From: an uncultured Candidatus Saccharibacteria bacterium | GTDB taxonomy: Bacteria > Patescibacteriota > Minisyncoccia > Phycocordibacterales > UBA918 | Length of the DNA: 64,000 nt | Reading direction: 5' to 3' | Assembly: GCA_964608605.1 (NCBI GenBank) | Contig: CAZSOS010000001.1 | Coordinates: forward strand, 207,452-271,451 | Part shown: positions 2,378 through 60,657 of the stretch, in pieces | Layout: every line of letters starts with the position of its first letter | Numbering within the stretch: position 1 is the stretch's first letter | Notes under the pieces: generated by a model | What the model saw: only the letters and a program-made list of their open reading frames with translations | Told to the model about the DNA's origin: nothing | Databases searched by the model: none | Translations under genes and position numbers: made by a program

Positions 2378-3130
2378 CTAGCGCACGTTCACGCGAGTCC
2401 GGAAGCTGTTATTCGAGCGATCGGAGTCAGAACCGCCTTCGACGGTCACGCCGACGTATTCCGAACCACGGGTCTCCGAAGCTCCGAAGACCACGGTCAA
2501 GGTGGCGCTTTCCTGAGGCTTCAGGGGGGCCTGCGACTTCGAGGTCATGCTAGAACCGTTAGGCAGCTCGGCAACGAACGTCCAATCGGACGAGGTCTTG
2601 GTGCCAAGGTTCTTCACCACGAACTGCATGGCGCCATTGTCGCGGCGAGACAGCTCGTCAGCGGCGACGAAACGGCCGGCAGAGTTCATGTAACCAACAG
2701 CTGAGAAGCTTACCGAAAGATCGGTGTGGCCCTTAGGATCGGAAACCGGGGTCTTGTAGGTGACCACAGTCTTCCACTGCACCGGCGTGGAAGTAGCGGG
2801 CTTGGAAACGACCGGAGTGATCGGGGCCGGAGTGGTGGTAACGGTCGAGGTCGCCGTCACTGCCGGAGTAGTGGTGGTAGCGGCCGGCGGGTTGGTGACC
2901 ACGATCTCATTATCGCCCTCGATCACGACAGTGTCGTTATCGTCATCATTGTCGGTCAACCGATCTTCATAGTCGCGCTGGTTGGCTTCGAAGATGTTGG
3001 CCAGGGAAGAGAAGGCGGTCGGGAGAAAACGTACTGCCTGCACGGCCAACCAGGCCAAGAGGCATACCATCACCACGAAGCCGATCACGGCCATCACGCG
3101 AAGCATCTGCTCGTTTCGTTCGTTGTTCAT
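2378..3130 (-). CDS. membrane-anchored Thr/Pro-rich surface protein (hypothetical)
   Basis: Likely start MNNERNEQ. N-terminal TM/signal anchor (VMAVIGFVVMVCLLAWLAV), acidic DNDDDND segment, T/P-rich linker (TTTTPAVTATSTVTTTPAPITPVV) and a beta-rich C-terminal domain. Confidence 0.55.
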   Translation of the reverse strand: MNNERNEQMLRVMAVIGFVVMVCLLAWLAVQAVRFLPTAFSSLANIFEANQRDYEDRLTDNDDDNDTVVIEGDNEIVVTNPPAATTTTPAVTATSTVTTTPAPITPVVSKPATSTPVQWKTVVTYKTPVSDPKGHTDLSVSFSAVGYMNSAGRFVAADELSRRDNGAMQFVVKNLGTKTSSDWTFVAELPNGSSMTSKSQAPLKPQESATLTVVFGASETRGSEYVGVTVEGGSDSDRSNNSFRTRVNVR

Positions 3131-3281
3131 AAATAAAATTCGATTAATCCTTATATGATACATGTTTTTAATGATTTGTCAAGGACGCTATCGTCGCGTT
3201 AAGTCAATGCCCGGCGGGTGGATATCCACCATCGCTTGGGCCCGGAGGGTAGGGGGCAGGTGGTCAGACGCGCCACCAACC

Positions 3282-3309
3282 TTGACAAATTACCTATTTC
3301 GTGTATTAT
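3282..3309 (+). promoter_or_regulatory. sigma70-like promoter TTGACA-N16-TATTAT followed by ATATAAGGA
   Basis: Read directly from the sequence upstream of the sortase start. AAGGA lies 8 nt before the ATG. Confidence 0.5.
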
Positions 3310-3324
3310 ATAAGGATCAAACCT

Positions 3325-4002
3325 ATGGATCTCTCCCGATTCTTCAACGAAATAATGCCGCGAATGAGCGCTTTCTTAGGCGTCTTCTTCGTGGTCATGA
3401 TGATCGGCTACGGCTTTCTCTATTTCATCGACTTCGTGCCCGAGGCCCCGACCGATAACGAGGCCAAGAAAGCCGAGGAAACCGCTTCAGTCATAGAGGA
3501 AGAACCGGCGGCAGCGCAGCCGGTCATCGAGGAAACCCCTACCGTGGCTATAAATAACGATCCTTTCCCGATCAGTATCTCTCTTAGCCCTCTAGATCGC
3601 ACCGTGACCGTCCTTAATCCCGCCTCCCGCAGCGTGGCCGATCTGGATGCCGCCTTGCTTAAGGGCGTGGTGCGCCACCCGGACTCGGCCGATCTCAACG
3701 ATGAACAGGGAAATATCCTTATTCTCGGCCATTCCAGTTACCTAAAGAACGTCTTCAATAAGAACTACCAGGCCTTCAACGGCATCCAGAACCTCAAATG
3801 GGGCGATACCATCACCCTCAAGTCGAGCGACATGGAATACACCTACCGCGTGGATAGGGTATACGAGGCCAAGGCTAGCGCCGTCATGGTGCCCACCAAG
3901 GCCAGCCAGGCCAAACTCACTCTGGCCACCTGCGATACTTTCGGCGCCAAGGAAGACCGCTTCATCGTCGAAGCCACTCTGGTATCCAAAAAGCCCCTAT
4001 AA
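3325..4002 (+). CDS. sortase family transpeptidase
   Basis: N-terminal TM anchor, catalytic His in ILILGHSSY and the TLXTC Cys motif (KLTLATCDTFG) typical of sortases. Confidence 0.8.
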   Translation: MDLSRFFNEIMPRMSAFLGVFFVVMMIGYGFLYFIDFVPEAPTDNEAKKAEETASVIEEEPAAAQPVIEETPTVAINNDPFPISISLSPLDRTVTVLNPASRSVADLDAALLKGVVRHPDSADLNDEQGNILILGHSSYLKNVFNKNYQAFNGIQNLKWGDTITLKSSDMEYTYRVDRVYEAKASAVMVPTKASQAKLTLATCDTFGAKEDRFIVEATLVSKKPL

Positions 4003-4145
4003 ACGGGGCTTTTTGGATGCTTGACAAAAAGACCCAAATATGCTAAGATGGTAGATAAGTAGGTTTCGGGAGTATAGTGCTTCCAAACCACCTCGTACCT
4101 TCATCAGTTCCTCAGGATTCGGTTCAAAACAGAAAGGAGCGCGTC

Positions 4146-4571
4146 ATGCGCCACATCATCCTCTCCGCCTTCGGCCTCCTGGCCGCGCTCATCATCTTCG
4201 CCTCATTCGGCGGCATCAACACCGCCGAAGCCGGACAGTACTGCAAGTCGGCCTCCACCTGCAAGGCGGAAGTCGCAGCCCTGACCAGAAGCCAGGACGC
4301 CGCGGCCCGCGGCGCGCAGTGGAAGGTCGGCCAGTCCAGCTGCCGCTCGGCGGCCGAACAGCAGAAGGCCAATGAGCGCCGCTGCCGAGCCTTCGACGCC
4401 AAATGGGGCGGCAAGACCCTGGAAGAATGCGCGCGCTGCTATCGGCAGGTCCGTGAGGACATCCGCCGGTGGGAAGCCTGCCACAAGGCTTCGGGGGGCA
4501 TCGTCCCGCCGCCGCCCGCGGCGATCTACGCTTCGCTGGCTCGCCTCGGCCAAATGGCCGGTTCGTTCTGA
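4146..4571 (+). CDS. small secreted Cys-rich protein (hypothetical)
   Basis: RBS AAAGGAG before the ATG. Signal peptide MRHIILSAFGLLAALIIFASFGGINTAEA, 8 Cys, Pro-rich tail PPPPAA. Confidence 0.5.
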   Translation: MRHIILSAFGLLAALIIFASFGGINTAEAGQYCKSASTCKAEVAALTRSQDAAARGAQWKVGQSSCRSAAEQQKANERRCRAFDAKWGGKTLEECARCYRQVREDIRRWEACHKASGGIVPPPPAAIYASLARLGQMAGSF

Positions 4572-4575
4572 ACTG

Positions 4576-4613
4576 AAAAAAGTGGTCGCGGATGATTCAT
4601 CCGCGACCACTAA
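4576..4613 (+). terminator. intrinsic terminator
   Basis: AGTGGTCGCGGATG-ATTC-ATCCGCGACCACT hairpin flanked by A/T runs. Confidence 0.6.
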
Positions 4614-4701
4614 AACATTCATTATGGATGTTGGCGACGAAACCATGTTTCGTCTTCATTATCCGGAATGATCCGGTAGTTACAAATTCTATCAATTATT
4701 T

Positions 4702-6381
4702 ATGAAAAATTTTATCAATACCAAGGTATTCCTCTTTGGCATCATCGCTGCCTCTACCGCAGCGGTCATGGTTTTTGTGGTCATACCTCAGTTTCCTCAG
4801 GTTAACAGTTCTATCGATGGCCTCAGCACTTCTATCGACAAGGTAGAGGCCTGGGGTGATTGGTCTGGTTCCGGAGACTACGGTTCCGGTTGTTGCGACT
4901 ATACCGGTGATAGTTATGATACTGGATGGGGCGACTGGTCTGGCACCGGCGACTATGGTTCCGGTTGTTGTGACTCCACTAGCGGTGGCGGCTACGGCGG
5001 AAGTTACACTCCTTCCACCCCCTCTACTCCAGACACCCCGACTTACACGCCTCCGACCTACGTTCCGCCTCCGACTCCGGCAGCCGTCTGTCATTATTTG
5101 ACAGCTAGTGCCTCGTCGGTGAAGTACGGCGGTGATACTGTCTACCTCTCATGGAGCACTAGCAACGCTGGATCGGTCTCGATCAGCGGCATCGGTAGCG
5201 TGGCCGCGAGTGGTAGTAACCACCCGGTATCCGTCAGCTCTGACACCACGTTCACTCTGACCGCCACTTCGGCCGGAGGCAACGGTTCTTGCGCCGTCAC
5301 TATCACGGTTCAGCCGCCTTTGGCCGCCGTTTGTAACTACCTTAATTCCAGCCACGTGAACGTGCCCGTCGAGGGCGCTACCGTGACCCTCTCCTGGTCG
5401 ACCACCAACGCTAGCTCGGTCTCGATCAGCGGCGTCGGTAACGTCTCTCCAGTGAATCAGGGACAGGTCAATGTCTTCGTTAGCGGTAACCGCACCTTCA
5501 CTCTGACCGCGGTCGGAACCGGAGGCAACGGTTCCTGCACCGTCTCTATCGGTACGAACATCACCAATAAGGATATCCCTCGCTGCGAATACCTGCGCGC
5601 CAACGTTGGCAACAACGTCAAGCGTGGCGATCGGATCACCCTTACTTGGGCGACCACCAACGCTGACATGGTCCACATCAGCCCGATGCCGGGAGGCGTC
5701 TCCCGCAACGGCTCCGAGACCGTGATCCTCGAGAACGACGTCAACACCTTCACTCTGACCGCTCGTAACTTCCAGACCAACAACGAAGCTACCTGTACGG
5801 TGACCGTGCGCGTCGATAAGGAGGACAAGACCCCTACCTGCGACCTCAAGGTCTCCAAGTCCCGCGTCAACCGCGGCGAGAAGGTAACCCTTTCTTGGAA
5901 GACCACCGACACCGAGGGTCTCCGCATCCGCGACGACCAGGGAAAGACCATCTTCGACATCTCGCACTACAGCGTCTCTGAGCGCCGCCACTACAAGACC
6001 GGCGAAGTGGACGTCATCGTCAACCGCAACACCGAGTTCATCATGAACGTTCGCGGTGAAGACAACTCCAGCCGCACCTGCCGCGTCGAGGTTACCGTTG
6101 GCGGACTCGAAGTCTACGAGAAGCGCGATCAGGGATACGTCATCGCTTTGACCCAGGTGCCTTACACCGGATTCGAAGCTGGCGCCTTCCTGACCTTCCT
6201 CTTCTACGCGGTATTGACCCTCTGGGCTCTCTTCATCGCTTACGTGCTCGTCATCAAGAAGGGCACTGTGCTTGGATTCTCTCTCTACGGCGCTACCGCC
6301 GGCTTGAGCGAGACCGACGTGGAGAACCGAAAAAAAGTAGAAGCGCTGGTAGCGAAGTACAGTGGACAGAACCAGAAGTAG
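4702..6381 (+). CDS. surface protein with Cys-rich tandem repeats, four Ig-like repeats and a C-terminal PYTG-TM-KKG segment
   Basis: N-terminal signal anchor, 2x GDWSG(S/T)GDYGSGCCD repeat, P/T linker, four ~85-aa repeats each bounded by Cys, then QVPYTGFEAG plus a hydrophobic stretch and KKG. Confidence 0.75.
   Translation: MKNFINTKVFLFGIIAASTAAVMVFVVIPQFPQVNSSIDGLSTSIDKVEAWGDWSGSGDYGSGCCDYTGDSYDTGWGDWSGTGDYGSGCCDSTSGGGYGGSYTPSTPSTPDTPTYTPPTYVPPPTPAAVCHYLTASASSVKYGGDTVYLSWSTSNAGSVSISGIGSVAASGSNHPVSVSSDTTFTLTATSAGGNGSCAVTITVQPPLAAVCNYLNSSHVNVPVEGATVTLSWSTTNASSVSISGVGNVSPVNQGQVNVFVSGNRTFTLTAVGTGGNGSCTVSIGTNITNKDIPRCEYLRANVGNNVKRGDRITLTWATTNADMVHISPMPGGVSRNGSETVILENDVNTFTLTARNFQTNNEATCTVTVRVDKEDKTPTCDLKVSKSRVNRGEKVTLSWKTTDTEGLRIRDDQGKTIFDISHYSVSERRHYKTGEVDVIVNRNTEFIMNVRGEDNSSRTCRVEVTVGGLEVYEKRDQGYVIALTQVPYTGFEAGAFLTFLFYAVLTLWALFIAYVLVIKKGTVLGFSLYGATAGLSETDVENRKKVEALVAKYSGQNQK
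4850..4990 (+). repeat. intragenic ~78-bp tandem repeat encoding GDWSG-GDYGSGCCD
   Basis: Two near-identical DNA units (tggggtgattggtctgg... / tggggcgactggtctgg...). Confidence 0.7.
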
Positions 6382-6512
6382 TCTGTCAGATCCCCACGAT
6401 CTGCCCGACCAAGGTCTACGAGCTTCCAGCGCCTACCGAGGATAGGCCAGAGCCTTACATAACCTATTATCACGACGATACTCCCCCGAACTTGCCTATA
6501 GGCGAGAAGCCC

Positions 6513-6547
6513 GACTACTTGAAGTAGTCCCACAAGTCAGACTTGTG
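6513..6547. repeat. two adjacent palindromes GACTACTTGAAGTAGTC and CACAAGTCAGACTTGTG
   Basis: Perfect odd palindromes 3' of the surface-protein gene. The second shares its core with 41265. Confidence 0.6.
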
Positions 6548-6567
6548 TAGACGGGCGGGAGCGAGAA

Positions 6568-6598
6568 AAAGCCGGACCATTTGGTCCGGCTTTTTCGT
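6568..6598. terminator. bidirectional intrinsic terminator
   Basis: AAAAAGCCGGACCATTTGGTCCGGCTTTTT. Confidence 0.75.
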
Positions 6599-6821: not shown

Positions 6822-8564
6822 CTAAAGCGAACGCGCGGATACCTTGACTTTCAAGTAGTCAGCCAGCTCGTCGGCACTGTGCTCCAGCTTGCTGCCATCG
6901 CTCATTTCCAGGGTCAACTGTCCAGACTCGGCCTCCTTGTCGCCGATGACCACGAAGGCCGGGATCTTCTGTTGCTTCACCGCCCGGATCTTCTTGCCCA
7001 AGGACTCGTTGGCGTCATCCAGCATACATCTTATACCGGCCGCCTTGAGCTTCGCGTAGAGCTCGCGCGCCGGGTCATTGTGCTTCTCCGAGACCGGCAG
7101 GATGGCTACCTGCTCTGGTGCCAACCACAGCGGAAAGCGGCCGCCTAAGTGTTCGATCAAGACGGCCGAGAAACGCTCGATCGAACCCATGATGGCGCAG
7201 TGGATCATGACGATACGCTCTTTTTCGCCCGCCTCATTGATACAGGTGAGATCGAAGCGCTCCGGCAGGTTCATGTCGAGCTGGATGGTGGCCACCTGAT
7301 GCTCGCGGCCGATGGAATCCTTGGCCATGAAGTCGAGCTTGGGGCCGTACATGGCCGCTTCGCCAGGAGCTTCGAAGTAATCGGCCTGGCGCTCGCGAGC
7401 GATGTCACGGAGCGCGTTCTCGGCGTTATTCCAGATCTCTGGGGTGCCCAAGTACTTCTCCATCTCCGACGGTTCGTGGAAGGAGAGCCGGACTCGGAGC
7501 TTGAAGCCGAAGGTACCGTAGAAGGTGTCGACAATGTCCCAGATGCGGAAGAACTCTTCCTTAACCTGTCTGTGACGGCAGAACACGTGGCTATCGTCCT
7601 GAGTGATCGAAAGTACGCGGGTGAGACCGCCCAGCTCGCCTGACTGTTCGTCGCGATAGACCATGGTGGTCTCGGCGTAGCGTTGCGGCATCTCGCGATA
7701 GCTGTGCGGCTTGCGGTCGAAGATCTGCGTGTGGTGCGGACAGTTCATCGGCTTTAAAGCGTACTCCTTGCCCTCGCGGGTACTGATGCGAAAGAGTTCG
7801 TCGGCGAACTTCTCCCAGTGTCCGGAGGTCTCGTAGAGGTCCTTCTTGGTGATGTGAGGGATGGTGACCCGCTGATAGCCATGACTTTCCCGGAGCTCCC
7901 AGATGTAGGAATCAAGAGCGTGGCGCAAGACCGTGCCCTTAGTGGTCCAAAGCGGCAATCCGGCGCCGACCAGATCGGAGAAAGTGAAGAGATCGAGTTC
8001 CTTGCCGAGCTTGCGATGGTCGCGCTCTTTGGCTTCGGCCAGCTGCTTTTCGTAGGCTTCAAGCTCGTCTTTGGTCTCGAAGGCCAGGCCATAGATACGA
8101 GTCAACATGGCGTTCTGTTCGTCGCCGCGCCAATAGGCGCCGGCCACCTTGGTGAGCTTGAAGGACGCCGGGTCGATGTCCGCGGCCGGATTCTCACTAT
8201 GTCCGCCGCGACAGAGGTCCTCGAAGTCGCCGCTCTTGTAGAGAGTGATGGTCTCCCCGCTGTTCGCGATCTCCTCTATAAGCTCTAGTTTGTAGGGATT
8301 GCCCGCGAAGATGGTCCTGGCCTCCTCGGCCAAAACCTCGCGGTGAGAGAACTCCTTCCAGGCCGGCAATAGCTTCCTCATGACCTTCTCGATGGCCGGC
8401 AGATTGGCGTCGCCAACCGGTTCGCCTCCTTGGAAGTCGATGTCATAGTAAAAGCCGGTGTCGACGGCCGGACCGATGGTCAATTTGGCGTGCGGATATT
8501 TCTGCAGCACCGCCGCCGCCAAAAGGTGGGCAAGAGTGTGGCGTTTATGTTCGAGGTTGGACAT
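6822..8564 (-). CDS. thrS: threonyl-tRNA synthetase
   Basis: 580 aa with class II aaRS core and anticodon-binding domain, ThrRS-specific motifs, and the N-terminal HxxxH editing-like second additional domain. Confidence 0.95.
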   Translation of the reverse strand: MSNLEHKRHTLAHLLAAAVLQKYPHAKLTIGPAVDTGFYYDIDFQGGEPVGDANLPAIEKVMRKLLPAWKEFSHREVLAEEARTIFAGNPYKLELIEEIANSGETITLYKSGDFEDLCRGGHSENPAADIDPASFKLTKVAGAYWRGDEQNAMLTRIYGLAFETKDELEAYEKQLAEAKERDHRKLGKELDLFTFSDLVGAGLPLWTTKGTVLRHALDSYIWELRESHGYQRVTIPHITKKDLYETSGHWEKFADELFRISTREGKEYALKPMNCPHHTQIFDRKPHSYREMPQRYAETTMVYRDEQSGELGGLTRVLSITQDDSHVFCRHRQVKEEFFRIWDIVDTFYGTFGFKLRVRLSFHEPSEMEKYLGTPEIWNNAENALRDIARERQADYFEAPGEAAMYGPKLDFMAKDSIGREHQVATIQLDMNLPERFDLTCINEAGEKERIVMIHCAIMGSIERFSAVLIEHLGGRFPLWLAPEQVAILPVSEKHNDPARELYAKLKAAGIRCMLDDANESLGKKIRAVKQQKIPAFVVIGDKEAESGQLTLEMSDGSKLEHSADELADYLKVKVSARSL

Positions 8565-32197: not shown

Positions 32198-32272
32198 GCT
32201 CCGGAAGCTCTCCGTGTTATACCCAACGGCTCATTGACTAAACCGTTGAATAATGTATAGTTGCGGAACCGT

Positions 32273-33586
32273 ATGGTTGCGAAAAAGAAAAAAGCAACGA
32301 AGAAGGTAAAGAAGGCGACCAAAAAAGTCGTCAAGAAAGCAGCAAAAAAAACGGCCAAAAAGACTCCGACCAAGCGAGTCACGGCATCAAAAAAGAAAGC
32401 TGCGAAGAAGCCGGCGGTGAAGAAGGTCCAGAAGGCCATCAAAAGACCCGCCAAAAAAGTTACCAAGAAGACTCCCAAAGCCGCGCCGAAGGCGACGCCC
32501 AAACAGACCAAATTCACTCGCGAACGCGAGACCAAAGCGGCCGACCTAATGAAGATCGGCCGTGATCGCGGATACGTCACTTATGACGATATCCTAAAAT
32601 ACTTTCCGACCATAGAAAGGGACGTGGAATTCCTGGAAGAGCTCTACGATCGCCTGCATATCGCCAACGTCGACGTGCTCCAAAGCGGCGGTCTCTTATC
32701 CGATGACCGCAGCGAAGAGCTGTTGGCCCAGAAGAACGCCTACAAGCGCGGTGAATCGAGCTACGACTCGATCCAGATGTACCTGCGCGAGATCGGCCAG
32801 TACCCACTACTGACCGCCATGGAGGAGCGTACCCTGGCTAAGCGCATCGTGGACGGCGACGATGAGGCGCGAAACCTGTTGGCGCGCGCCAACCTGCGCC
32901 TGGTGGTATCGATCGCCAAGAAGTACGTGGGCCGGTCACCCGACCTGACGCTCTTGGACCTCATCCAGGAAGGCAACCTGGGCCTTTTCAAGGCGGTCGA
33001 CAAGTTCGACTTCACCAAGGGCTTCAAGTTCTCCACTTACGCCACCTGGTGGATCCGCCAGGCTATCACTCGCGCCTTGGCCGACCAGTCGCGCACCATC
33101 CGCATCCCGGTCCACATGGTGGAGACCATGGCCAAGTACAAGCAGGTCTCGCGCCGCCTGGCGCAGGACCTGGGCCGCGATCCGATGCCGGAAGAGATCG
33201 CCACCGAAATGGGCATCGAAGTGGAGAAGGTCTATCAGATCGAGAAGATCAGCCAGGACACCATCTCGCTCGAACTGCCGGTGGGCGACGACGACGACCG
33301 CTCGCGGCTTTCGGACTTCATCGCCGACGACAAGATCACGGCGCCCGACCAAGAGGTAGCGCACAGCATCCTGACCGACCAGATCCTAGAGATACTGGAC
33401 ACTTTGTCGGAAAAGGAACGCAAGATCCTCGAGATGCGCCACGGGCTCATCGACGGCACGTACCACACCCTGGAGGAGGTGGGCGCCGAGTTCGGGGTCA
33501 CCCGCGAGCGCATCCGCCAGATCGAAGCCAAAGCGCTCGAAAAGATCCGCCAGCACGAGAAGGCCCGCCGACTGAAGAGTTACTAA
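32273..33586 (+). CDS. rpoD: RNA polymerase sigma-70 factor with N-terminal Lys/Ala-rich histone H1-like tail
   Basis: Regions 1.2, 2, 3 and 4 are conserved ([43 protein letters not shown]). A ~85-aa (A/T)KK(K) repeat tail precedes them. Confidence 0.93.
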
Positions 33587-41348: not shown

Positions 41349-42083
41349 TTATCGCAGCAGTCCGTCTATCAGCAACTTCACGGTCTCATAAGGCTGCGCG
41401 CCGTCGATGGCCGTCTTCTGGTCGCCGACGATCACCACCGAGTAAGGGGTGCCGATGGCGCCGATCTCAGCCGCGTTCACGGCGTTGTCCTCGATACCCT
41501 CCCGATGCCGGCCGCTGGCCACACAGGACTCGTAATCAGCCTTGGACACGCCGACGGTCTCAGCGAATTCCGGCAGGCGCACCAGATCGGTGCTGCCGGT
41601 CGAACCGCGCTCGCCGAAGACCAGGTCGGCGAATTTCCAAAAGGCTTCGTTGCCTCCCAGCTCCGCCACGCACTCCGACGCCTCGGCGATATGACCAGCG
41701 CTCGGATGCAGGGAAGTAATGGGCCAATGCCGATACACCCAGGCCACCTGTCCACCCGGACCGTACTCGTCCATGATCTTCTGCATGGTGGTGTGGAAGC
41801 GCTGGCAGAAAGGACAATCGAAGTCTGAATACTCGACTATAAGAAGCGGCGCGTTCGGGTTGCCGCGGATATGATCGTCGGCCGTGATGGGATCGACCTT
41901 CGATAGGTCGGCGGTCGGCGACTGGTTACCCAGCCCCGGAGCGACCGCTGCTTGCTTGCCACCGCTGAGGTAGATCGACGCGGCGATCAGACCGAAACCG
42001 ATAATGATCGCGGCCGGAATAGCCAGAGGGGAGCTACCCCTAGGCGCTCGCGCCACCGCGTTCTCAGTGTTTGTTTCATTCAT
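41349..42083 (-). CDS. DsbA-family thiol:disulfide oxidoreductase (membrane-anchored)
   Basis: N-terminal TM plus the thioredoxin-fold CPFC active site (YSDFDCPFCQRFH). Confidence 0.85.
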   Translation of the reverse strand: MNETNTENAVARAPRGSSPLAIPAAIIIGFGLIAASIYLSGGKQAAVAPGLGNQSPTADLSKVDPITADDHIRGNPNAPLLIVEYSDFDCPFCQRFHTTMQKIMDEYGPGGQVAWVYRHWPITSLHPSAGHIAEASECVAELGGNEAFWKFADLVFGERGSTGSTDLVRLPEFAETVGVSKADYESCVASGRHREGIEDNAVNAAEIGAIGTPYSVVIVGDQKTAIDGAQPYETVKLLIDGLLR

Positions 42084-42115
42084 ATGGCGAAATTATATCA
42101 TGCTATCATGGAGGC

Positions 42116-42925
42116 ATGGATGCTCTGAACAGTGCGTTATTCGGCCTGCTGCAGGGACTGACGGAATTCCTGCCGGTCTCCTCGACCGGGCACCTGGTCC
42201 TGCTTCACGAAGTCTTCGGCGCCGGAGACAACGACATGGCCTTCGACGCCGTCCTGCAACTGGCCACCGTCCTGGCGGTGGTGATCTACTTCCGCCGCGA
42301 TATCTTCGACATGGTGAACGCCGTGCTACGCCAGCTTTCCCGACTGCCGGTCAATCAGAAGGAGATCACCCTGGCCTACGCGCTTTTAGCCGGAACCATC
42401 CCGGCCATCATCTTCGGCCTGATGCTGGAATCATACATGGAGACCATCTTCCGCAGCCCGCTTTTCGTGGCCGGAGTGCTGGTCGCCGGCTCGGTGCTGT
42501 TCATGATCGCCGAGTGGGTATACATCACCAAGAAGCGCGACGACAAAGTGACGGTGATGAAAGGCTTCAAGATCGGCCTCTTTCAATGCCTGGCCCTGAT
42601 GCCCGGATTCTCCAGAAGCGGCGCCTCCATCGCCGGCGGCATGATCTTGGGCCTGACCCGCGCCGAAGCGGCCCGATTCTCATTCTTGCTGGCCGTGCCC
42701 GTCATTCTCGGTAGCGGCCTGAAGAAATTGTTGGACCTGATGATGGCCGGCGGCAGCGTCGCCTGGGGCGACCTGGCCGTGGCCGCCCTGGTCGCCTTCC
42801 TGGCGGGACTTTTCGCCATCCACTTTATGCTGTCCTTTGTCCGCCGCCACACCCTTTGGCCCTTCATTTGGTATCGTCTCATCCTGGCCGGCATCGTGCT
42901 CTTCGTCTTCTATTTTGGACAGTAG
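42116..42925 (+). CDS. uppP: undecaprenyl-diphosphate phosphatase
   Basis: GGAGG RBS. LQGLTEFLPVSSTGHL BacA/UppP signature. Confidence 0.9.
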   Translation: MDALNSALFGLLQGLTEFLPVSSTGHLVLLHEVFGAGDNDMAFDAVLQLATVLAVVIYFRRDIFDMVNAVLRQLSRLPVNQKEITLAYALLAGTIPAIIFGLMLESYMETIFRSPLFVAGVLVAGSVLFMIAEWVYITKKRDDKVTVMKGFKIGLFQCLALMPGFSRSGASIAGGMILGLTRAEAARFSFLLAVPVILGSGLKKLLDLMMAGGSVAWGDLAVAALVAFLAGLFAIHFMLSFVRRHTLWPFIWYRLILAGIVLFVFYFGQ

Positions 42926-45063: not shown

Positions 45064-48000
45064 TTGTCTATGTATAATTCGCACATAATGAACGGCAAGA
45101 ATGTTACTGCCGCCGTACTGGTCGCTATACTCAGTGTCGGCCAGATCGCCTACGGAGCGACCGAAATATCTGAAGACATAGAGGGTGATATCACCTGGAC
45201 CGTTGCCAATAGTCCGTATATAGTCACTACCAACATAGGCTTCAGCCCTATCACTCCCGGCGCGACGCTTACAATAGAACCGGGGGTTGAGGTTAAATTT
45301 TCTCCTAATGCCAGTATCAGCATATTTGGCAATCTGATATCGAAAGGGGATGAAAACATGCCCATAAAATTCACTTCAACGGAACCCGACACTGCTTGGA
45401 GAATCAATATTTTTGACTCCCAAAATAGTGAATTACTCCATATCATCAACGGCTCCACTCTGGGTGGCATCGCGTCATACAATTCAAACATTCACGCGCG
45501 CGACCTCTCCGGCGACAGTGAGCTGATGTTGTTTGACGGAACCTCTGATCTTAAAGATATTTCTTTCACGAACAACAGGCTTTTTATCAACGGTGGATCG
45601 ACGATCATCAATGACCTAAATATCATCGGCGGTGGCGCGAGTTTTTTCGATACTAACGTCACGCTTCAAAACGCCAATATCAGCCATACAAATTCTTCTC
45701 CCGCCATCATCACTTCCGATCGAGCGGTCAGTTTTAATAACGTATACATAAACAACGCCGAGCATGGCATTATCGCCAGCAACGTACCTAACCTACAGCT
45801 ACATAACGCGGTCATTTCGAACGTTGTCAATAATGGACTGACCTTCGATGGAGGGTTGGCTAATTTGTCCAATGTATCCATAGAAAATTCCTACTATGGC
45901 GCCGGTCTTCAGGGCAGTCAGATATCCCTAGACGATCTCCATATTAATAATATCCAAGCCCCGGCGTTGCAGGTTAATGCTGATCTGACCAATATCTCCA
46001 ATTCTTCCTTCGCGAATGGTGCCAATACCGGCGTGAGTGTCAGCGGCGCGTCAGCCGAACTGCAAAATGTCACGATCACTGGTTTTCCAAACGCGCCAGC
46101 GCTATTGCCAAGTACCGCGAGCCTTCACGGCCAGCAATTGACTCTAAAGAACAACCTGATCGGTATTTATAACTACTCATCCGGCACCACCACTATCAGG
46201 CAAAGCAATATCAGCGACAATACCCAATTCGGAGCCATTGGCAGTAGAAGTGTATTAGATGCCAGAAATAACTTCTGGGGACACGCGGCCGGGCCGACAA
46301 CCGGCGACACTGGAAATCCTGAAACCATCATCAAAGGTGACGCGGTCGTAGGCAATGTGATGTATGAACCTTGGTTGGAGGAGTTCTGTGAATCCGCCTG
46401 TCATTCTAATATCATGTTTTTGCCGGGGATCATGTCATCTCGATTGTATGATGGGAGCGAACAACTTTGGGAGCCGGGGATATTCACCCGCGACAGAGAA
46501 TTTGAAGCGTTGTATCTGGACGCGGCTGGCAAAAGCATCCGCGATATTCATACGAAAGACGTGCTTGATAACGGCTATGCCTACGGCAAGCTCGTAGAAG
46601 ACCTGAATGAACTTAAAGCTGCTGGAACCATCAACGACTACGAGGCTGTGCCGTACGACTGGCGACTGTCGATAGAAGATATTTTAAATACCGGTACAAA
46701 GCGTGAAGACGGCTCTATCATCTATGGTAGCGCTACCTCAGAACCATATATTGAGAGCGCTCTCCGTCGCCTAGCCGCCAATTCCAAATCAGGCAAAGTG
46801 ACCATCATAGCGCACTCCAACGGCGGACTGGTCACCAAAGCCCTAATAAACCGCCTCAACAGTGAGGCGTCCGACCTTATCGATAAGGTTATCTTCGTCG
46901 CCGTCCCGCAACTCGGCACGCCGCAAGCTATCGGTGCCTTGCTTCACGGCTACAACGCCGGACAACCCGGCTTGTATCCGTTCATACTATCGCCAGAGCG
47001 CGCTCGGGACCTGGCCATCAATATGCCAATGATTTATCAGCTCATGCCGTTCGCTGATTATTACAATAGCGACGGCGCAACTATTTATACGCCTTATGTA
47101 AGCTTTGAGGACAGTGCCGCAACACAGTCATTCATAGACAAGTATGGGTACGACGTTAGACACGAACATTTGTATTCTTTCCTCATTGGTTCCGAAGGTC
47201 GCTCAACTCCAGCCTACGATGATAGAGAAAATCCAGCCCTAGCCAACGCAACGCTATTGGCCGAAGCCCAAACATTGCAGCAAGTCATCGATTCTTCCTG
47301 GACGGTCCCGGAGGGAATTGAGGTACACCAAATCGCTGGCGTTGGTGAGAGAACCTTGGCAGGCATTATCTATCAAACTTTCCCCGACTGCACAGAACGT
47401 GATTTCTTATTCCGCTGCCAACAATATGATAATCGTCTTACTTATTACCCAAACACGGTTATCGATGGCGATGGGACTGTAGTAGTACCTAGCGCGCTGG
47501 CAATGAGTACCACTAGCGATTCTGTGAAGAGGTGGTGGTTGAACTTACAGTCTTACAATGGAGCAACACCGAGTTTTTTGAGAGAGCAACACTCTGACAT
47601 ACTTGAAGTGGACGAATTGCGTCGTTTCATCATGGAAAATCTCCTTAAAGACGACCTGGCCAGTACACCAATCTTTATATCTTCTTCTGCTCCATACTTG
47701 GAACAGGGTAACCGTCTGGTCTTCACCCTCCATTCTCCGCTCGCACTTTCAGCCACCGACGAGCACGGGAATATAACCAACGAACAAGAAACCAGCATCC
47801 CCGGCGCTACCTACACCCGCTATGGCGAAGTTCAGGTTATCACAGTACCGACAGGCACCAAATTCACCCTGGTTCTCACTGGCGAAGCTGAAGGATCATT
47901 CACTCTGGAAATGGAGGAGTTCGAGGGTGACGACTTGGTGGATATCAGCACCTTCTCGGCCATACCTTCCAGCACCGATACTCTGGCTACCATCTTTTTC

Positions 48001-48369
48001 ACTGATGGTTCTCTGGAAAATGTGGGCGAACTGCAAATAGATCACAACGGCGACTCCATCGTAGACCTCACCTACACGCCGATACTCGGCGAGACAGTAA
48101 CCGCGCCCGACCCCATCGCCATGATCGTGGAGCGAATTATTTTAGGTGGTAGTAGCGGAGGTTCGCTACCGCTCGGCCGCGTGCTCGGAGTTTCTGATAA
48201 CACGCTCACTCTTGAACAACTGGCCCATATCGTCAAACAGTTACATATTGTCGTGACTGCACTCTCTCACCTAAGGGGCCAAATACCCGAAGAACAGTAT
48301 GCGACAATCTCTGGCCAAGTCCTCACGATATTAAGCACACTTGAGATGTTGCTACAGAGTAAAAGTTAG
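45064..48369 (+). CDS. large secreted protein: N-terminal parallel beta-helix repeats fused to an LCAT/PGAP1-like alpha/beta-hydrolase (lipase/acyltransferase) domain
   Basis: Signal peptide. PbH1-like repeats (NVxISN...). Central FLPGIMSSRLYDG, YDWR and IIAHSNGGLV motifs characteristic of the LCAT-like lipase family. GC is lower than in neighbouring genes. Confidence 0.75.
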   Translation: MSMYNSHIMNGKNVTAAVLVAILSVGQIAYGATEISEDIEGDITWTVANSPYIVTTNIGFSPITPGATLTIEPGVEVKFSPNASISIFGNLISKGDENMPIKFTSTEPDTAWRINIFDSQNSELLHIINGSTLGGIASYNSNIHARDLSGDSELMLFDGTSDLKDISFTNNRLFINGGSTIINDLNIIGGGASFFDTNVTLQNANISHTNSSPAIITSDRAVSFNNVYINNAEHGIIASNVPNLQLHNAVISNVVNNGLTFDGGLANLSNVSIENSYYGAGLQGSQISLDDLHINNIQAPALQVNADLTNISNSSFANGANTGVSVSGASAELQNVTITGFPNAPALLPSTASLHGQQLTLKNNLIGIYNYSSGTTTIRQSNISDNTQFGAIGSRSVLDARNNFWGHAAGPTTGDTGNPETIIKGDAVVGNVMYEPWLEEFCESACHSNIMFLPGIMSSRLYDGSEQLWEPGIFTRDREFEALYLDAAGKSIRDIHTKDVLDNGYAYGKLVEDLNELKAAGTINDYEAVPYDWRLSIEDILNTGTKREDGSIIYGSATSEPYIESALRRLAANSKSGKVTIIAHSNGGLVTKALINRLNSEASDLIDKVIFVAVPQLGTPQAIGALLHGYNAGQPGLYPFILSPERARDLAINMPMIYQLMPFADYYNSDGATIYTPYVSFEDSAATQSFIDKYGYDVRHEHLYSFLIGSEGRSTPAYDDRENPALANATLLAEAQTLQQVIDSSWTVPEGIEVHQIAGVGERTLAGIIYQTFPDCTERDFLFRCQQYDNRLTYYPNTVIDGDGTVVVPSALAMSTTSDSVKRWWLNLQSYNGATPSFLREQHSDILEVDELRRFIMENLLKDDLASTPIFISSSAPYLEQGNRLVFTLHSPLALSATDEHGNITNEQETSIPGATYTRYGEVQVITVPTGTKFTLVLTGEAEGSFTLEMEEFEGDDLVDISTFSAIPSSTDTLATIFFTDGSLENVGELQIDHNGDSIVDLTYTPILGETVTAPDPIAMIVERIILGGSSGGSLPLGRVLGVSDNTLTLEQLAHIVKQLHIVVTALSHLRGQIPEEQYATISGQVLTILSTLEMLLQSKS

Positions 48370-56555: not shown

Positions 56556-57743
56556 TTGGACAATATGGCAAAGATAAAGATACTAATAGGAGTATTGATA
56601 CTCGTATTATTCACCCCGGCCTCCTTGGCCTCGGCCGCGGCGCTGGAGGTCGGAGGCTGGATACCTTATTGGCAGGACACCATGGGTACCGAAAGTGCCT
56701 TTAGGCAGATGGACAAGCTCGACACCGTCTATCCCTTCGCTTTCGAAGTATCGTCGGTCGGCATCCCCGTGGACAAGGCCGATCTGACCGAACGCAAATG
56801 GCAGGACCTGTTCAAGGAAGCCCGCCAGAACGACGTGGAGATCATCCCGACCATCCTCTGGAATAACGGCGCCGAGATACATCGGGTGCTCAGCAATCCG
56901 ATCTGGCGGGCCGTGCACATTGAGATCATCGCCCGCATGGTGGAAGCTGGTGATTTCGACGGCATCAACATCGACTACGAATCCAAGCTGGCCGAGACCA
57001 AGGACCATTACTCCACCTTCCTCAAGGAACTTAAGGAACGGCTGAACGGTAGATCTCTTACTTGTACCGTCGAAGCACGCATGCCGCCTGAGAGCCGCTG
57101 GCGCGAGATCCCGGCCGTCATCGAGTACGCCAACGACTACCGCGCCATCGGCCAGCACTGCGACGTCGTGGAGATCATGGCCTACGACCAGCAGCGCGCC
57201 GACCTGCTCTTGAACGACGCCCGCAAAGGCGAGCCGTACATCCCGGTCGCCGATACCGAGTGGGTGGAGAAGGTGGTGAAGCTGGCGCTCAAGGACATTC
57301 CCGCCTCCAAGATAATGCTCGGAGTCCCCACCTATGGCCGCCAATGGACCCTGACCGTCGAACCGGATTGGTTCAAGGAATACCAGAGCGTCGGCGCCAT
57401 CAACCTGCCGGACGCCGAGGAGCTGGCCGAGGACTACGACGCCCCGATCGGCCGCAACAGCGCCGGCGAGGCCAGCTACACCTTCTTCCACCAGGATTCC
57501 ATCTTCAGCATCCTCAATGTCCTGCCGACGCCGGACGGCACTAAGCCCGGCTTCGAAGCCGCCGCCAAGGCTCTGCTCTTTGCTAACATCGCCAAGATGC
57601 CGGTCCAGGTGAACATCGTCTGGTACTCCGACGCGGTGGCGATCGCCGAGAAGGTCGACCTGGCCGAGAAGCTAGGCCTCAAAGGCATCGCCATCTTCAA
57701 GGTCGACGGGGAAGAGGACCAAGATATCTGGGACCTGTTCTAG
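56556..57743 (+). CDS. secreted glycoside hydrolase family 18-like protein
   Basis: Signal peptide. GH18 catalytic-region motif DFDGINIDYE (DxxDxDxE with the second Asp replaced by Asn), and YDQ. Confidence 0.75.
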   Translation: MDNMAKIKILIGVLILVLFTPASLASAAALEVGGWIPYWQDTMGTESAFRQMDKLDTVYPFAFEVSSVGIPVDKADLTERKWQDLFKEARQNDVEIIPTILWNNGAEIHRVLSNPIWRAVHIEIIARMVEAGDFDGINIDYESKLAETKDHYSTFLKELKERLNGRSLTCTVEARMPPESRWREIPAVIEYANDYRAIGQHCDVVEIMAYDQQRADLLLNDARKGEPYIPVADTEWVEKVVKLALKDIPASKIMLGVPTYGRQWTLTVEPDWFKEYQSVGAINLPDAEELAEDYDAPIGRNSAGEASYTFFHQDSIFSILNVLPTPDGTKPGFEAAAKALLFANIAKMPVQVNIVWYSDAVAIAEKVDLAEKLGLKGIAIFKVDGEEDQDIWDLF

Positions 57744-59961: not shown

Positions 59962-60032
59962 GGGCCCATAGTATAGCGGTAGAACGCCTCCATGGCATGG
60001 AGGAGGTCGGGGTTCGACTCCCCGTGGGTCCA
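59962..60032 (+). tRNA. tRNA-Ala (anticodon GGC)
   Basis: Hand-folded. Acceptor GGGCCCA/TGGGTCC with G3:U70. Anticodon loop ATGGCAT. T-arm GGGGTTCGACTCCCC. Discriminator A. No encoded CCA. The D-stem has one A-A mismatch. Confidence 0.7.
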
Positions 60033-60050
60033 CGCGGTTATGGTATTTCG

Positions 60051-60070
60051 GTGGTAGTGTTCGCGATTCG
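60051..60070 (+). repeat. 20-bp exact duplicate of the tRNA-Pro D-loop/anticodon-stem segment (GTGGTAGTGTTCGCGATTCG)
   Basis: Identical to 60101-60120 inside tRNA-Pro. Lies 17 nt upstream of the intact gene. Confidence 0.7.
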
Positions 60071-60086
60071 AGATAAAACGCATTGT

Positions 60087-60157
60087 CGGGCCGTAGCATA
60101 GTGGTAGTGTTCGCGATTCGGGTTCGCGAGGTCCGAGTTCGATTCTCGGCGGCCCGA
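60087..60157 (+). tRNA. tRNA-Pro (anticodon CGG)
   Basis: Hand-folded. C1:G72 acceptor CGGGCCG/CGGCCCG with A73, as is typical of bacterial tRNA-Pro. Anticodon stem-loop CGCGA-TTCGGGT-TCGCG. T-arm CCGAG-TTCGATT-CTCGG. Confidence 0.75.
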
Positions 60158-60209
60158 CAATGTGTTGTATCGGAAGTCCCGGGGACTTCCGTGGCTACAA
60201 CGAAGGTGT

Positions 60210-60237: not shown

Positions 60238-60239
60238 CA

Positions 60240-60557: not shown

Positions 60558-60657
60558 ATGTATTCTACCACAATAATCATGCTTGAATATTGAAAGAATG
60601 TGGATTTTCTGTAGAATAGACGCAACTTGGTCGATATCGCCGATCCAAGTAGTACAT

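What the first reader, a model, noticed from the sequence alone, without database searches (positions are those of the whole stretch)
2378..6381. Sortase locus with a candidate substrate bearing a non-canonical VPYTG-TM-KKG signal that is not at the C-terminus
A sortase gene (TLATC catalytic motif) is flanked by three secreted or anchored protein genes. The 559-aa protein has QVPYTGFEAG, followed by a 24-residue hydrophobic segment, followed by KKG. That is the tripartite layout of an LPXTG sorting signal. However, the motif is VPYTG and about 38 more residues follow the basic patch. Either this sortase recognises an atypical motif with an extended cytoplasmic tail, or the segment is simply a C-terminal membrane anchor.
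Basis: partly seen in the sequence, partly recalled or inferred. Interest (0 to 1): 0.5.

Follow-up and report, generated by a model that had tools for sequence, protein, structure and literature searches.

The report
Sortase partner protein with frameshifted tail
An ultra-small (CPR) bacterium keeps a sortase next to one dedicated surface protein, whose invariant VPYTG anchor signal is followed by an intracellular tail that seems to be read in two frames, so the same gene would give two versions with different intracellular ends.

Summary
A sortase (3325-4002; His/Cys/Arg intact) sits two genes upstream of a 559-aa exported protein. That protein ends in VPYTG (6157-6171), a 24-residue membrane helix, KK and 39 further residues.

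This is a clade signature, not a chance motif. VPYTGF[ED]AG occurs once per genome in 143 of 185,579 species genomes, all Kaiserbacteria-type Patescibacteria. The same sortase lies upstream in all 68 loci with enough flank. The motif segment is better conserved than GyrB.

Most orthologues carry a 250-300-aa cytoplasmic tail unique to this family (P-x-NLP-x-G motif plus two folded domains). "Not at the C-terminus" is therefore the family norm.

Unexpectedly, in 22 of 86 loci the tail continues in the -1 frame from an A7 or A9 run. This window is one of them: A7 at 6330-6336, 0-frame stop 6379-6381, -1 ORF to 6527. The -1 peptide DDTPPNLPIGEKPDYLK shows third-codon-position variation, and all 17 lineage sequences have A7.

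Best reading: a dedicated sortase-substrate pair with a VPxTG signal, plus recoding that yields two C-terminal isoforms. Cleavage by the sortase is inferred, not shown.

The parts
2378..3163 (-). Conserved cassette gene, divergently transcribed from the sortase. It has an N-terminal membrane helix (aa 23-44), a Thr/Pro-rich linker and a C-terminal CARDB-like domain. The probable start is M12 at nt 3130.
   Evidence: ORF. Weak CARDB hit (E 0.001, below cutoff). Orthologues in 70 loci. Same position in L001-L007. A promoter-like site at 3182-3155 scores 11 of 12.
3325..4002 (+). Membrane-anchored sortase of no defined class (the ORF is open from 3301). The conserved membrane helix is FLGVFFVVMMIGYGFLYFIDFVPE (nt 3373-3444). 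Catalytic residues are His in ILGHSSY (3721-3741), Cys in TLATC (3919-3933) and Arg in EDRFIVEA (3952-3975).
4146..4571 (+). Small Cys-containing protein with a signal-peptide-like N-terminus (ORF open from 4077). It is lineage-specific filler, not a conserved member of the cassette.
   Evidence: Homologues in only 3 other loci (4 of the 88 searched, counting the window). Other loci hold unrelated small secreted proteins at this position.
4702..6381 (+). Standard-frame ORF of the candidate sortase substrate (559 aa). It has an N-terminal signal or anchor (aa 1-30), a Gly/Ser/Cys-Cys and Pro/Thr low-complexity stalk, four Cys-bracketed Ig-like repeats (aa 130-464, nt 5089-6093), the VPYTG module and a 39-aa tail.
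6130..6267 (+). The 46-aa conserved module: [ST]-x-VPYTGF[ED]AGP, a membrane helix with one conserved face (L, T, FY, L, W, AY, LV), then KK. VPYTG is at 6157-6171, the helix at 6184-6255 and KK at 6256-6261.
   Evidence: Column statistics. The profile finds 601 proteins (E<=1e-3) among 1.84 billion representatives. It occurs in 143 species, once each. The motif segment has 85% mean pairwise identity, against 80% for GyrB.
6330..6336 (+). A7 run (CGA AAA AAA G). This is the candidate -1 frameshift or transcriptional-slippage site.
   Evidence: All 17 sequences of this lineage have A7. It is one of only three A/T runs of 7 or more in the 64-kb window.
6336..6527 (+). The -1-frame extension (63 codons plus the TAG at 6525-6527). 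It would give a 608-aa product ending in YYHDDTPPNLPIGEKPDYLK. No ATG, GTG or TTG precedes the conserved peptide in this frame.
   Evidence: Variable columns by codon position are 10, 6 and 21 of 21 each. The same ORF and C-terminal peptide are present in 8 genome loci and 9 metagenome loci.
6565..6596 (+). Strong intrinsic terminator (14-bp stem plus T-run). It lies 38 nt after the -1 stop and 184 nt after the 0-frame stop.
   Evidence: No terminator-like site lies between 6381 and 6527.

Best explanation
The locus is a clade-specific, single-copy envelope cassette of Kaiserbacteria-type Patescibacteria. It comprises an N-anchored CARDB-like protein, an unclassified membrane sortase and one dedicated partner protein.

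The partner is exported. It displays a low-complexity stalk and four disulfide-bracketed Ig-like repeats. It is held in the membrane by an invariant VPYTGF(E/D)AGP motif, a membrane helix and KK.

Most likely (inferred, not shown) this module is the sortase's sorting signal. The sortase would cut between T489 and G490 and transfer the ectodomain to an envelope acceptor, such as lipid II or peptidoglycan. The helix and whatever follows it would stay in the membrane.

What follows the helix is functional. The family's usual state is a 250-300-aa cytoplasmic tail: LGFSL, a P-x-NLP-x-G motif, a small alpha/beta domain (DomA) and a helical domain (DomB).

In about a quarter of lineages the tail is reached only by a -1 shift at an A7 or A9 run. 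In this window the shift would occur at the A7 run 6330-6336. Standard decoding gives a 559-aa form ending RKKVEALVAKYSGQNQK. A -1 shift, by ribosomal frameshifting or RNA-polymerase slippage, gives a 608-aa form ending DDTPPNLPIGEKPDYLK.

The gene would therefore make two C-terminal isoforms of one sortase-linked surface protein.
For: Shown:
1. The cassette order gyrB | (-) anchored protein | sortase | small gene(s) | VPYTG protein | thrS dnaE is the same in every context looked up.
2. A same-strand sortase lies 2.3-7.2 kb upstream of the motif in all 68 GTDB loci with enough flank. The 12 loci without it are all cut within 3.3 kb upstream.
3. The motif is single-copy and restricted to one clade. 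There are 146 pattern hits in 185,579 species genomes, 143 confirmed, and the 80 kept come from 80 different assemblies. The profile finds 601 proteins among 1.84e9 representatives.
4. V, P, T, G, F, A and G are invariant. The motif segment has 85% mean identity, against GyrB 80%, ThrRS 63%, the sortase 52% and the adjacent ectodomain 43%.
5. The topology is right for a sorting signal: N-terminal signal, motif at the outer face of the helix, and basic residues inside.
6. In 8 species the 0-frame product stops 2-10 residues after the KKK (1 after the RKK in L049), which gives a textbook C-terminal signal.
7. The sortase has intact His, Cys and Arg, and a confident sortase-fold model.
8. VPxTG is a proven sortase motif (RrgC VPDTG, PMC5640630).

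Recoding:
1. DomA lies in the -1 frame in 14 loci. All 14 transitions fall at an A9 run (13 loci) or an A7 run (1 locus).
2. The window's lineage has A7 in 17 of 17 sequences, with a conserved -1 C-terminal peptide.
3. That peptide shows third-position variation: 10, 6 and 21 variable columns of 21 at codon positions 1, 2 and 3.
4. There is no start codon in the -1 ORF.
5. The terminator follows the -1 stop, not the 0-frame stop.
6. The shifted loci fall in at least 3 clades, one with an in-frame locus nested inside it.
7. A-runs of 7 or more are rare in this genome: 3 in 64 kb.
Against: - No cleavage or anchoring is shown.
- All evidence for the pairing comes from one syntenic clade, so adjacency could be inherited gene order rather than functional coupling.
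- A conserved, folded 250-300-aa cytoplasmic region after a sorting signal has no precedent that I know of.
- One face of the membrane helix is conserved (F, Y, L, W, A, Y). That is unusual for a helix that is discarded after cleavage and fits a permanent membrane role.
- No NCBIfam LPXTG-anchor or sorting-signal model matches the protein at E<=0.1.
- No convincing frameshift-stimulating RNA structure was found. Only an invariant 4-bp hairpin lies 7 nt downstream, with no covariation.
- A7 is short for efficient transcriptional slippage.
- Whether other [LIV]PxTG proteins exist elsewhere in these genomes could not be tested.
Confidence: 0.55

Rival explanations
1. Permanent bitopic anchor. The VPYTGFEAGP motif and helix are never cleaved. 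They would be a conserved juxtamembrane and membrane-helix element that holds a surface protein and its cytoplasmic tail together, perhaps in a membrane complex with the sortase and the upstream anchored protein. The sortase would act on other proteins encoded elsewhere, or have a non-catalytic role.
For: - Most orthologues carry conserved, folded cytoplasmic domains after the helix. That makes sense if the outside and the inside stay connected.
- One helical face of the membrane segment is nearly invariant.
- The membrane helices of the sortase (Y..LY.IDF.PE) and of the upstream protein are also conserved.
- No sorting-signal HMM matches the protein.
Against: - It does not explain why P, T and G of a sortase pentapeptide are invariant exactly at the outer membrane face.
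- It does not explain why the sortase is always adjacent.
- In 8 species the default product ends right after the KKK.
- No other candidate substrate exists in the cassette, in the 64-kb window or in about 1.4 Mb of related loci.
Confidence: 0.28
2. Pilus- or fibre-type polymerisation. The sortase would join the Thr of VPYTG of one subunit to a Lys of the next, as class C sortases do with VPDTG or IPQTG pilins. The tailed isoform would serve as the membrane-embedded base.
For: - VPxTG is typical of pilin subunits (PMC5640630).
- The ectodomain is a string of Ig-like repeats.
- Two isoforms could act as 'polymerising' and 'base' subunits.
Against: - No YPK-type pilin motif is present.
- Only one signal-bearing gene lies in the cassette.
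- The class C sortase model scores lowest among the credible classes (27 bits).
- The D-P-x-P segment before strand 1 is not conserved as a class C lid.
Confidence: 0.1
3. The frame changes are not decoded. They would be homopolymer assembly errors, decaying pseudogene tails, or DNA-level phase variation. Under this reading the 559-aa product is the only product in this genome.
For: - Homopolymers are classic sites of sequencing error and slipped-strand mutation.
- One locus (L032) has a +1 break without any A-run.
- No stimulatory RNA structure was found.
Against: - All 22 A-run cases shift in the same direction.
- Run length is identical in 17 of 17 independent assemblies of the window's lineage.
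- The -1 ORFs stay open for 50-290 codons and keep the DomA and DomB consensus.
- The -1 peptide shows a third-position variation pattern.
- Dozens of independent database proteins share the same 0-frame ending.
- The terminator follows the -1 stop.
- Phase variation is not excluded, but no in-frame variant of the window's lineage was seen.
Confidence: 0.07

Closest known systems
LPXTG-type cell-wall sorting signal with class A, D or E sortases
   Same: - A membrane-anchored sortase with the His-Cys-Arg triad.
- The fold is closest to SrtA, SrtE and SrtD structures, with target-normalised TM-scores of 0.63-0.78.
- The substrate has an N-terminal signal, a [LIV]PxTG pentapeptide, a membrane helix and basic residues.
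   Different: - The sortase reaches no class cutoff (best 39 bits against cutoffs of 140-165).
- The signal is not at the C-terminus in most orthologues.
- The membrane helix is itself conserved.
- There is one substrate per genome, not many.
Streptococcus pneumoniae RrgC (VPDTG) and other pilin signals read by class C sortases (PMC5640630)
   Same: Val at the first motif position, Ig-like ectodomains, and a sortase gene next to its substrate gene.
   Different: There is no pilin Lys motif, no lid-bearing class C sortase, and only a single subunit gene.
Dedicated one-sortase, one-substrate pairs, such as SrtB-IsdC and the class GN ('marine') sortase with its target (own knowledge; class GN model TIGR03784 hit at 22 bits)
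   Same: One-to-one pairing of a specialised sortase with an adjacent substrate that carries a boutique motif.
   Different: The motif, the phylum and the sortase lineage all differ. None of those substrates is known to carry a large cytoplasmic domain or a recoding site.
dnaX tau/gamma recoding: E. coli -1 frameshift at A AAA AAG, and Thermus thermophilus transcriptional slippage at A9 (PMC1088944, PMC5009743)
   Same: - An A-run inside a coding region.
- Standard and shifted reading give a long and a short C-terminal isoform.
- In-frame and out-of-frame configurations both occur among homologues (L047 carries an in-frame A9; L019 and L015 carry an out-of-frame A9).
   Different: - The gene family is unrelated.
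- At least three different sites are used within one family (+98, +143 to +177, +292 to +298 nt from the V codon).
- No stimulatory element was identified.
- Nothing has been shown experimentally.
Tripartite C-terminal sorting domains found by comparative genomics: PEP-CTERM, GlyGly-CTERM and MYXO-CTERM (PMC3237569, PMC11980579)
   Same: A signature motif, a membrane helix and a basic cluster, recognised by co-occurrence with a processing enzyme.
   Different: Those are many-to-one systems, strictly C-terminal, and processed by polytopic membrane enzymes. Here the pairing is one-to-one, the enzyme is a classical sortase, and the motif usually lies 140-330 residues from the C-terminus.

Membership tests
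Sortase (Pfam PF04203 transpeptidase family) | Sortase domain above the curated threshold | tested here: met
   65 bits against a cutoff of 26.6. Foldseek gives probability 1.0 to many solved sortases.
Sortase (Pfam PF04203 transpeptidase family) | Catalytic His, Cys (TLxTC) and Arg | tested here: met
   H144, C211 (TLATC) and R220 are present. All three are invariant in 31 homologues.
Sortase (Pfam PF04203 transpeptidase family) | N-terminal membrane anchor | tested here: met
   The hydrophobic helix at aa 25-48 is modelled as a long helix with pLDDT above 83.
Defined sortase classes A-F and GN (NCBIfam models) | Score above the class-specific cutoff | tested here: not met
   The best scores are SrtD-LPxTATN 39.0, class E 38.5, class D 35.5 and class C 26.9 bits, against cutoffs of 140-166. 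The generic sortase_fam model scores 36.9 against 39.35.
LPXTG-type cell-wall sorting signal | N-terminal export signal | tested here: met
   The N-terminus MKNFINTK is followed by a 20-residue hydrophobic stretch. This was read from the sequence. No dedicated predictor was available.
LPXTG-type cell-wall sorting signal | [LIV]-P-x-T-G pentapeptide just before a membrane helix, followed by basic residues | tested here: met
   VPYTG at aa 486-490, the helix at 495-518 and KK at 519-520. V, P, T and G are invariant in 99 distinct module sequences.
LPXTG-type cell-wall sorting signal | Located at the extreme C-terminus (only a short charged tail after the helix) | tested here: not met
   39 residues follow KK in the 0 frame and 88 in the -1 frame. 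In 63 of 86 loci DomA follows the helix in frame, giving 142-333 residues from the V of VPYTG to the stop. The criterion is met only by the 0-frame product of 8 loci.
LPXTG-type cell-wall sorting signal | Match to curated sorting-signal models (LPXTG anchor, SrtB-type signals) | tested here: not met
   No NCBIfam family matches the 559-aa protein at E<=0.1.
LPXTG-type cell-wall sorting signal | Cleavage between T and G, and transfer to an acceptor | not testable with these tools
   This needs a peptide-cleavage assay or proteomics.
Sortase-assembled pilin | Pilin motif with the nucleophile Lys (YPKN-like), and a class C sortase with a lid | tested here: not met
   No [YFW]PK or PK[NDGS] motif is present. 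The class C model scores 27 bits. The D-P-x-P segment is not conserved.
Programmed -1 frameshift or transcriptional-slippage gene | Slippery homopolymer at the frame junction, in the right register | tested here: met
   CG-A AAA AAA-G at 6330-6336. A9 or A7 runs mark all 14 loci whose DomA lies in the -1 frame.
Programmed -1 frameshift or transcriptional-slippage gene | The downstream frame is conserved as protein and has no start codon of its own | tested here: met
   Variable columns are 10, 6 and 21 of 21 by codon position. DomA and DomB HMM hits fall in the -1 frame. No ATG, GTG or TTG lies before the conserved peptide.
Programmed -1 frameshift or transcriptional-slippage gene | The same genotype in independent assemblies (so not an error or a switching tract) | tested here: met
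   All 17 sequences of the window's lineage have A7.
Programmed -1 frameshift or transcriptional-slippage gene | A stimulatory element (downstream structure or upstream SD-like site) | tested here: inconclusive
   Only an invariant 4-bp hairpin lies 7 nt downstream (-3.3 kcal/mol, no covariation). The upstream GGAG is not conserved.
Programmed -1 frameshift or transcriptional-slippage gene | Both protein products detected | not testable with these tools
   This needs metaproteomics, RNA sequencing or a reporter assay.

The most novel reading that the evidence does not exclude
The cassette may be an outside-in device and not a simple wall anchor. The sortase would cut at VPYT|G and uncouple an Ig-repeat ectodomain from a membrane-tethered cytoplasmic module: the P-x-NLP-x-G docking motif plus domains whose predicted fold resembles the lid and collar domains of clamp-loader subunits. 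Recoding at A-runs would set the ratio of tail-less to tailed molecules. Sortase processing would then act like a site-1 cleavage that changes what the cytoplasmic module does. It would be the first case of a sorting signal that is also the hinge of a transmembrane signalling or coupling protein, and the first conserved recoding system described in CPR bacteria.
Probability: 0.12. Interest if true: 0.85.

Novelty: new variant of a known kind. Interest (0 to 1): 0.66.

Why it matters
- **Sortase biology.** More than half of CPR genomes encode a sortase (PMC6744442), yet no CPR substrate or motif has been defined. This locus offers a precise, testable enzyme-motif pair: a one-to-one pairing with an invariant 10-residue motif.
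- **A rule under challenge.** If the motif is cleaved, sorting signals need not be C-terminal throwaway peptides. Here the part left behind is a conserved, folded cytoplasmic module.
- **Recoding.** Three independent A-run sites within one gene family, with both reading frames under protein-level constraint, would be a new natural example of dnaX-like two-isoform decoding. It would come from a phylum where recoding has not been described.
- **Annotation.** Gene callers currently truncate the protein and call the tail as separate 180-330-aa hypothetical proteins. These need correcting.

Tried and rejected
- **Literature.** A search for 'VPYTG' found only two unrelated papers. Searches combining LPXTG or frameshifting with CPR names found nothing relevant.
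- **Sortase class.** Assignment by NCBIfam failed for every class. The structural search did not separate classes A, E, D and C.
- **A second substrate.** None was found in the six-frame scan of the window or in about 1.4 Mb of related loci. The other cassette proteins have no C-terminal signal.
- **P0120.** This protein from another CPR lineage has a canonical C-terminal VPYTG, helix and KRRR. It has no sortase within 10 kb, so it neither supports nor weakens the pairing.
- **Tail domains in the window.** tblastn for DomA and DomB in the 64-kb window gave nothing better than E 0.4.
- **Identity of the tail domains.** Pfam and a PDB sequence profile search found no families. A profile search of 5.8 billion proteins found only this family.
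- **Gene fission.** I first read the short-tail orthologues as 'gene fission'. I rejected this once the frames were inspected: the 'separate ORF' is the -1 continuation from an A-run.
- **Frameshift stimulator.** The search for an RNA structure found only a 4-bp hairpin.
- **Pilus features.** A class C lid and a pilin motif were checked and not found.

Full report
**1. What is in the window**

The region between gyrB (223-2274) and thrS (6822-8564, minus strand) holds four genes.
- A 261-aa protein on the minus strand (2378-3163). It has an N-terminal membrane helix and a weak CARDB-like C-terminal domain.
- A sortase, open from 3301. Its likely start is 3325, which matches database protein P0243.
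- A small protein with a signal-peptide-like N-terminus (4146-4571).
- The 559-aa ORF (4702-6381).

The sortase hits Pfam Sortase at 65 bits. It carries His144 (ILGHSSY), Cys211 (TLATC) and Arg220 (EDRFIVEA).

The 559-aa protein has the following parts:
- an N-terminal hydrophobic signal;
- a Gly/Ser/Cys-Cys and Pro/Thr-rich stalk;
- four Cys-bracketed Ig-like repeats (aa 130-464);
- VPYTG at aa 486-490;
- a 24-residue hydrophobic helix at aa 495-518;
- KK, then 39 more residues.

A relaxed six-frame scan of the whole window found no second protein of this kind. My sortase HMM found no second sortase.

**2. The motif is a clade signature**

Homologues of the 559-aa protein come from Candidatus Kaiserbacteria and related Paceibacteria. 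Of the 120 best hits, 116 carry a nearly invariant 46-residue module:

[ST]-x-V-P-Y-T-G-F-[ED]-A-G-P-x-L-T-x-x-F-Y-x-x-L-x-L-W-[AG]-x-x-x-A-Y-x-L-V-x-[KR]-[KR]

An exhaustive profile search of 1.84 billion representative proteins found only 601 matches at E<=1e-3 and 250 at E<=1e-10.

A scan of one genome for each of 185,579 species found 146 stretches matching VPYTGF[ED]AG, and 143 were confirmed. All 80 retained loci come from different Patescibacteria assemblies, so there is one copy per genome.

Across these loci the motif segment is more conserved than housekeeping proteins. Mean pairwise identities:

| Segment | Mean pairwise identity |
|---|---|
| Motif segment | 85% |
| GyrB | 80% |
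| ThrRS | 63% |
| Sortase | 52% |
| Neighbouring ectodomain | 43% |

**3. Pairing with the sortase**

Five orthologues with different tail lengths, looked up in their contigs, all showed the same gene order: gyrB, minus-strand anchored protein, sortase, small gene(s), VPYTG protein, thrS, dnaE.

In the 80 GTDB loci, an HMM built from sortase orthologues found a same-strand sortase 2.3-7.2 kb upstream of the motif in 68. The other 12 loci are all cut within 3.3 kb upstream of the motif.

The upstream anchored protein is also conserved (70 loci). The small secreted protein is not: blastp found it in 3 other loci (4 counting the window).

The limitation is that all loci are syntenic members of one clade. 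Adjacency is therefore perfect but not phylogenetically independent.

**4. What kind of sortase**

No NCBIfam class model comes near its cutoff. The best scores are 39 bits (SrtD) and 38.5 bits (class E), against cutoffs of 140-166.

The closest solved sequences are the B. anthracis SrtD-type sortase 2LN7 and C. perfringens SrtD 4D70, at E about 1e-4.

An AlphaFold model (pLDDT 82) matches class A, E, D and C structures about equally, with target-normalised TM-scores of 0.63-0.78.

All of these classes read [LIV]-[PA]-x-T-[GA] motifs. VPDTG is the proven signal of pneumococcal RrgC (PMC5640630). VPYTG is therefore compatible with the enzyme and only mildly unusual.

The sortase's own membrane helix is strongly conserved (F..Y..L...D..PE invariant). 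So is that of the upstream protein.

**5. What follows the membrane helix**

The distance from Val of VPYTG to the stop falls into classes: 38-46, about 74, about 105, about 145-200 and about 270-333 residues.

The full tail, present in most species, has these elements in order:
- KK, then LGFSL;
- a linker;
- an invariant P-x-N-L-P-x-G motif;
- an acidic stretch;
- DomA;
- DomB.

No Pfam family and no PDB sequence matches the tail. A profile search of 5.8 billion proteins found the tail only in this family.

A position away from the C-terminus is therefore the normal state of the family, and the tail is under selection.

**6. Recoding**

I first read the short-tail orthologues as having the tail domains in a separate downstream gene. 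Inspection of the frames showed otherwise.

In L001, L002, L021, L023, L035, L053 and L082 there is an A9 run exactly at the KKK after the helix; L049 has an A7 run there. The 0 frame stops 1-10 codons after the basic cluster. The conserved tail continues without stops in the -1 frame.

More A9 sites lie further into the tail:
- +153 to +177 nt from the V codon in L015, L019 and L031;
- +292 to +298 nt in L036, L040 and L051.

Summary over 86 distinct loci:

| Configuration | Loci | Junction |
|---|---|---|
| DomA in frame 0 | 63 | none needed |
| DomA in frame -1 | 14 | A9 (13 loci) or A7 (1 locus) |
| DomA in frame +1 | 1 (L032) | no A-run |
| No DomA/DomB (window lineage) | 8 | A7 |

Of 21 runs of 9 or more A or T in 1.4 Mb of loci, 14 lie in this tail. 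The shifted loci fall in at least three clades of a sortase tree, and one clade has an in-frame locus nested inside it. In-frame A-runs occur at the same hot spots in L047 (A9), L048 (A8), L057 (A7) and L054 (A7).

The window belongs to a clade that has lost DomA and DomB but keeps the device. It has an A7 run at 6330-6336 (CGA AAA AAA G).
- The 0 frame ends ...NRKKVEALVAKYSGQNQK, with the stop at 6379-6381.
- The -1 frame runs on to 6527 and ends ...YYHDDTPPNLPIGEKPDYLK, which contains the family's P-x-NLP-x-G motif.

Evidence that the -1 frame is decoded in this lineage:
- In eight species the last 21 codons of the -1 ORF vary at 10, 6 and 21 of 21 columns at codon positions 1, 2 and 3. This is the signature of purifying selection on that frame.
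- The -1 ORF has no start codon before the conserved peptide.
- A metagenome scan with the conserved downstream 21-mer found nine more members. All have A7 and the same two C-termini, giving 17 of 17.
- The strong terminator (6565-6596) follows the -1 stop, not the 0-frame stop.
- Only three A or T runs of 7 or more exist in the 64-kb window.

The 33 nt after the run are almost invariant in DNA (3 variable columns), as expected for dual coding.

No convincing stimulatory structure was found: only an invariant 4-bp hairpin. I therefore cannot say whether ribosomal frameshifting or RNA-polymerase slippage is used. Both are established for A-runs in dnaX (PMC1088944, PMC5009743).

**7. Mechanism: shown and inferred**

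Shown:
- the cassette, and the invariance and single-copy nature of the motif;
- its topology;
- the intact catalytic triad;
- the conserved cytoplasmic tail;
- the A-run frame junctions, with protein-level conservation in both frames.

Inferred:
- that the sortase cleaves VPYT|G and transfers the ectodomain;
- that a -1 event produces a second isoform;
- that the P-x-NLP-x-G motif and DomA/DomB dock a cytoplasmic partner.

The main rival is an uncleaved bitopic anchor (about 0.28). It is supported by the conserved helix face and the conserved cytoplasmic domains. It leaves the invariant sortase pentapeptide and the obligatory neighbouring sortase unexplained. A pilus-type polymerisation (about 0.1) lacks a pilin motif and a class C enzyme. 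Treating the frame changes as errors or decay (about 0.07) conflicts with the uniform direction, the uniform run length and the codon-position signal.

**8. Comparison and novelty**

The system works like a dedicated sortase-substrate pair, and its decoding works like dnaX tau/gamma. It fails two membership criteria for a classical cell-wall sorting signal: C-terminal position, and a match to curated signal models. The sortase fits no defined class.

I found no description of the motif, of the tail domains or of recoding in CPR bacteria. I rate it a new variant of known kinds.

**9. Limits**

There is no experimental evidence. I could not read whole genomes of the clade, so other substrates elsewhere cannot be excluded. 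All comparative evidence comes from one clade.

Noticed in passing
window 6330-6527; also L001, L002, L015, L019, L021, L023, L031, L035, L036, L040, L049, L051, L053, L082 and L008-L014: A7 or A9 runs at three positions in the tail of the VPYTG gene. The conserved tail continues in the -1 frame. This looks like programmed -1 frameshifting or transcriptional slippage that gives two C-terminal isoforms. Gene callers split these genes into a truncated protein plus a separate 180-330-aa 'hypothetical protein'.
   Followed up: yes
[not shown]
   Followed up: partly
all tails; window 6489-6503 (-1 frame): An invariant short cytoplasmic motif, P-x-N-L-P-x-G, often followed by V/I-G-Y. It is retained even in the lineage that lost DomA and DomB. 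Its partner and function are unknown.
   Followed up: partly
window 3373-3444 (sortase helix), about 3032-3097 (upstream protein helix, aa 23-44) and 6184-6255 (substrate helix): All three membrane helices of the cassette proteins are unusually well conserved, with specific aromatic and polar positions. This hints at a membrane complex and possibly helix-helix recognition of the substrate.
   Followed up: no
L088 10001-11827 (protein P0120, another CPR lineage): A PKD-domain protein ends in ...SSVPYTGPNDG, a membrane helix, then KRRRQVMELLNI. This is a canonical C-terminal VPYTG signal, with no sortase within 10 kb. VPYTG may therefore be used more widely as a sorting motif in Paceibacteria.
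   Followed up: partly
window 60001-64000: G+C falls from about 0.55-0.60 to 0.40-0.44. The stretch encodes a DUF2726 protein (61193-61699), a PIN_8 protein (61742-62791) and a glyoxalase-family protein (63203-63598). It is possibly a horizontally acquired island.
   Followed up: partly
window 41349-42925: A membrane-anchored DsbA-like thioredoxin (41349-42083, minus strand) lies next to BacA/UppP, the undecaprenyl-pyrophosphate phosphatase (42071-42925). This fits disulfide formation in the Cys-bracketed Ig repeats and a lipid-II-type carrier cycle that a sortase could use.
   Followed up: no
window 45064-48369 and 56556-57743: A 1101-aa protein with a hydrophobic N-terminal segment and an LCAT-type lipase domain, and a GH18 (chitinase-like) protein. 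An LCAT-domain protein also lies next to the cassette in L003.
   Followed up: no
L001 1654-5064: In this relative, gyrB carries an intein (1136 aa, Pfam Intein_splicing). The window's gyrB (683 aa) does not.
   Followed up: no
window 32344-32351: An A8 run lies inside the Lys-rich N-terminus of the 441-aa ORF at 32261-33586. It is the only other long A-run inside a coding region of the window. It was not examined for frame changes.
   Followed up: no
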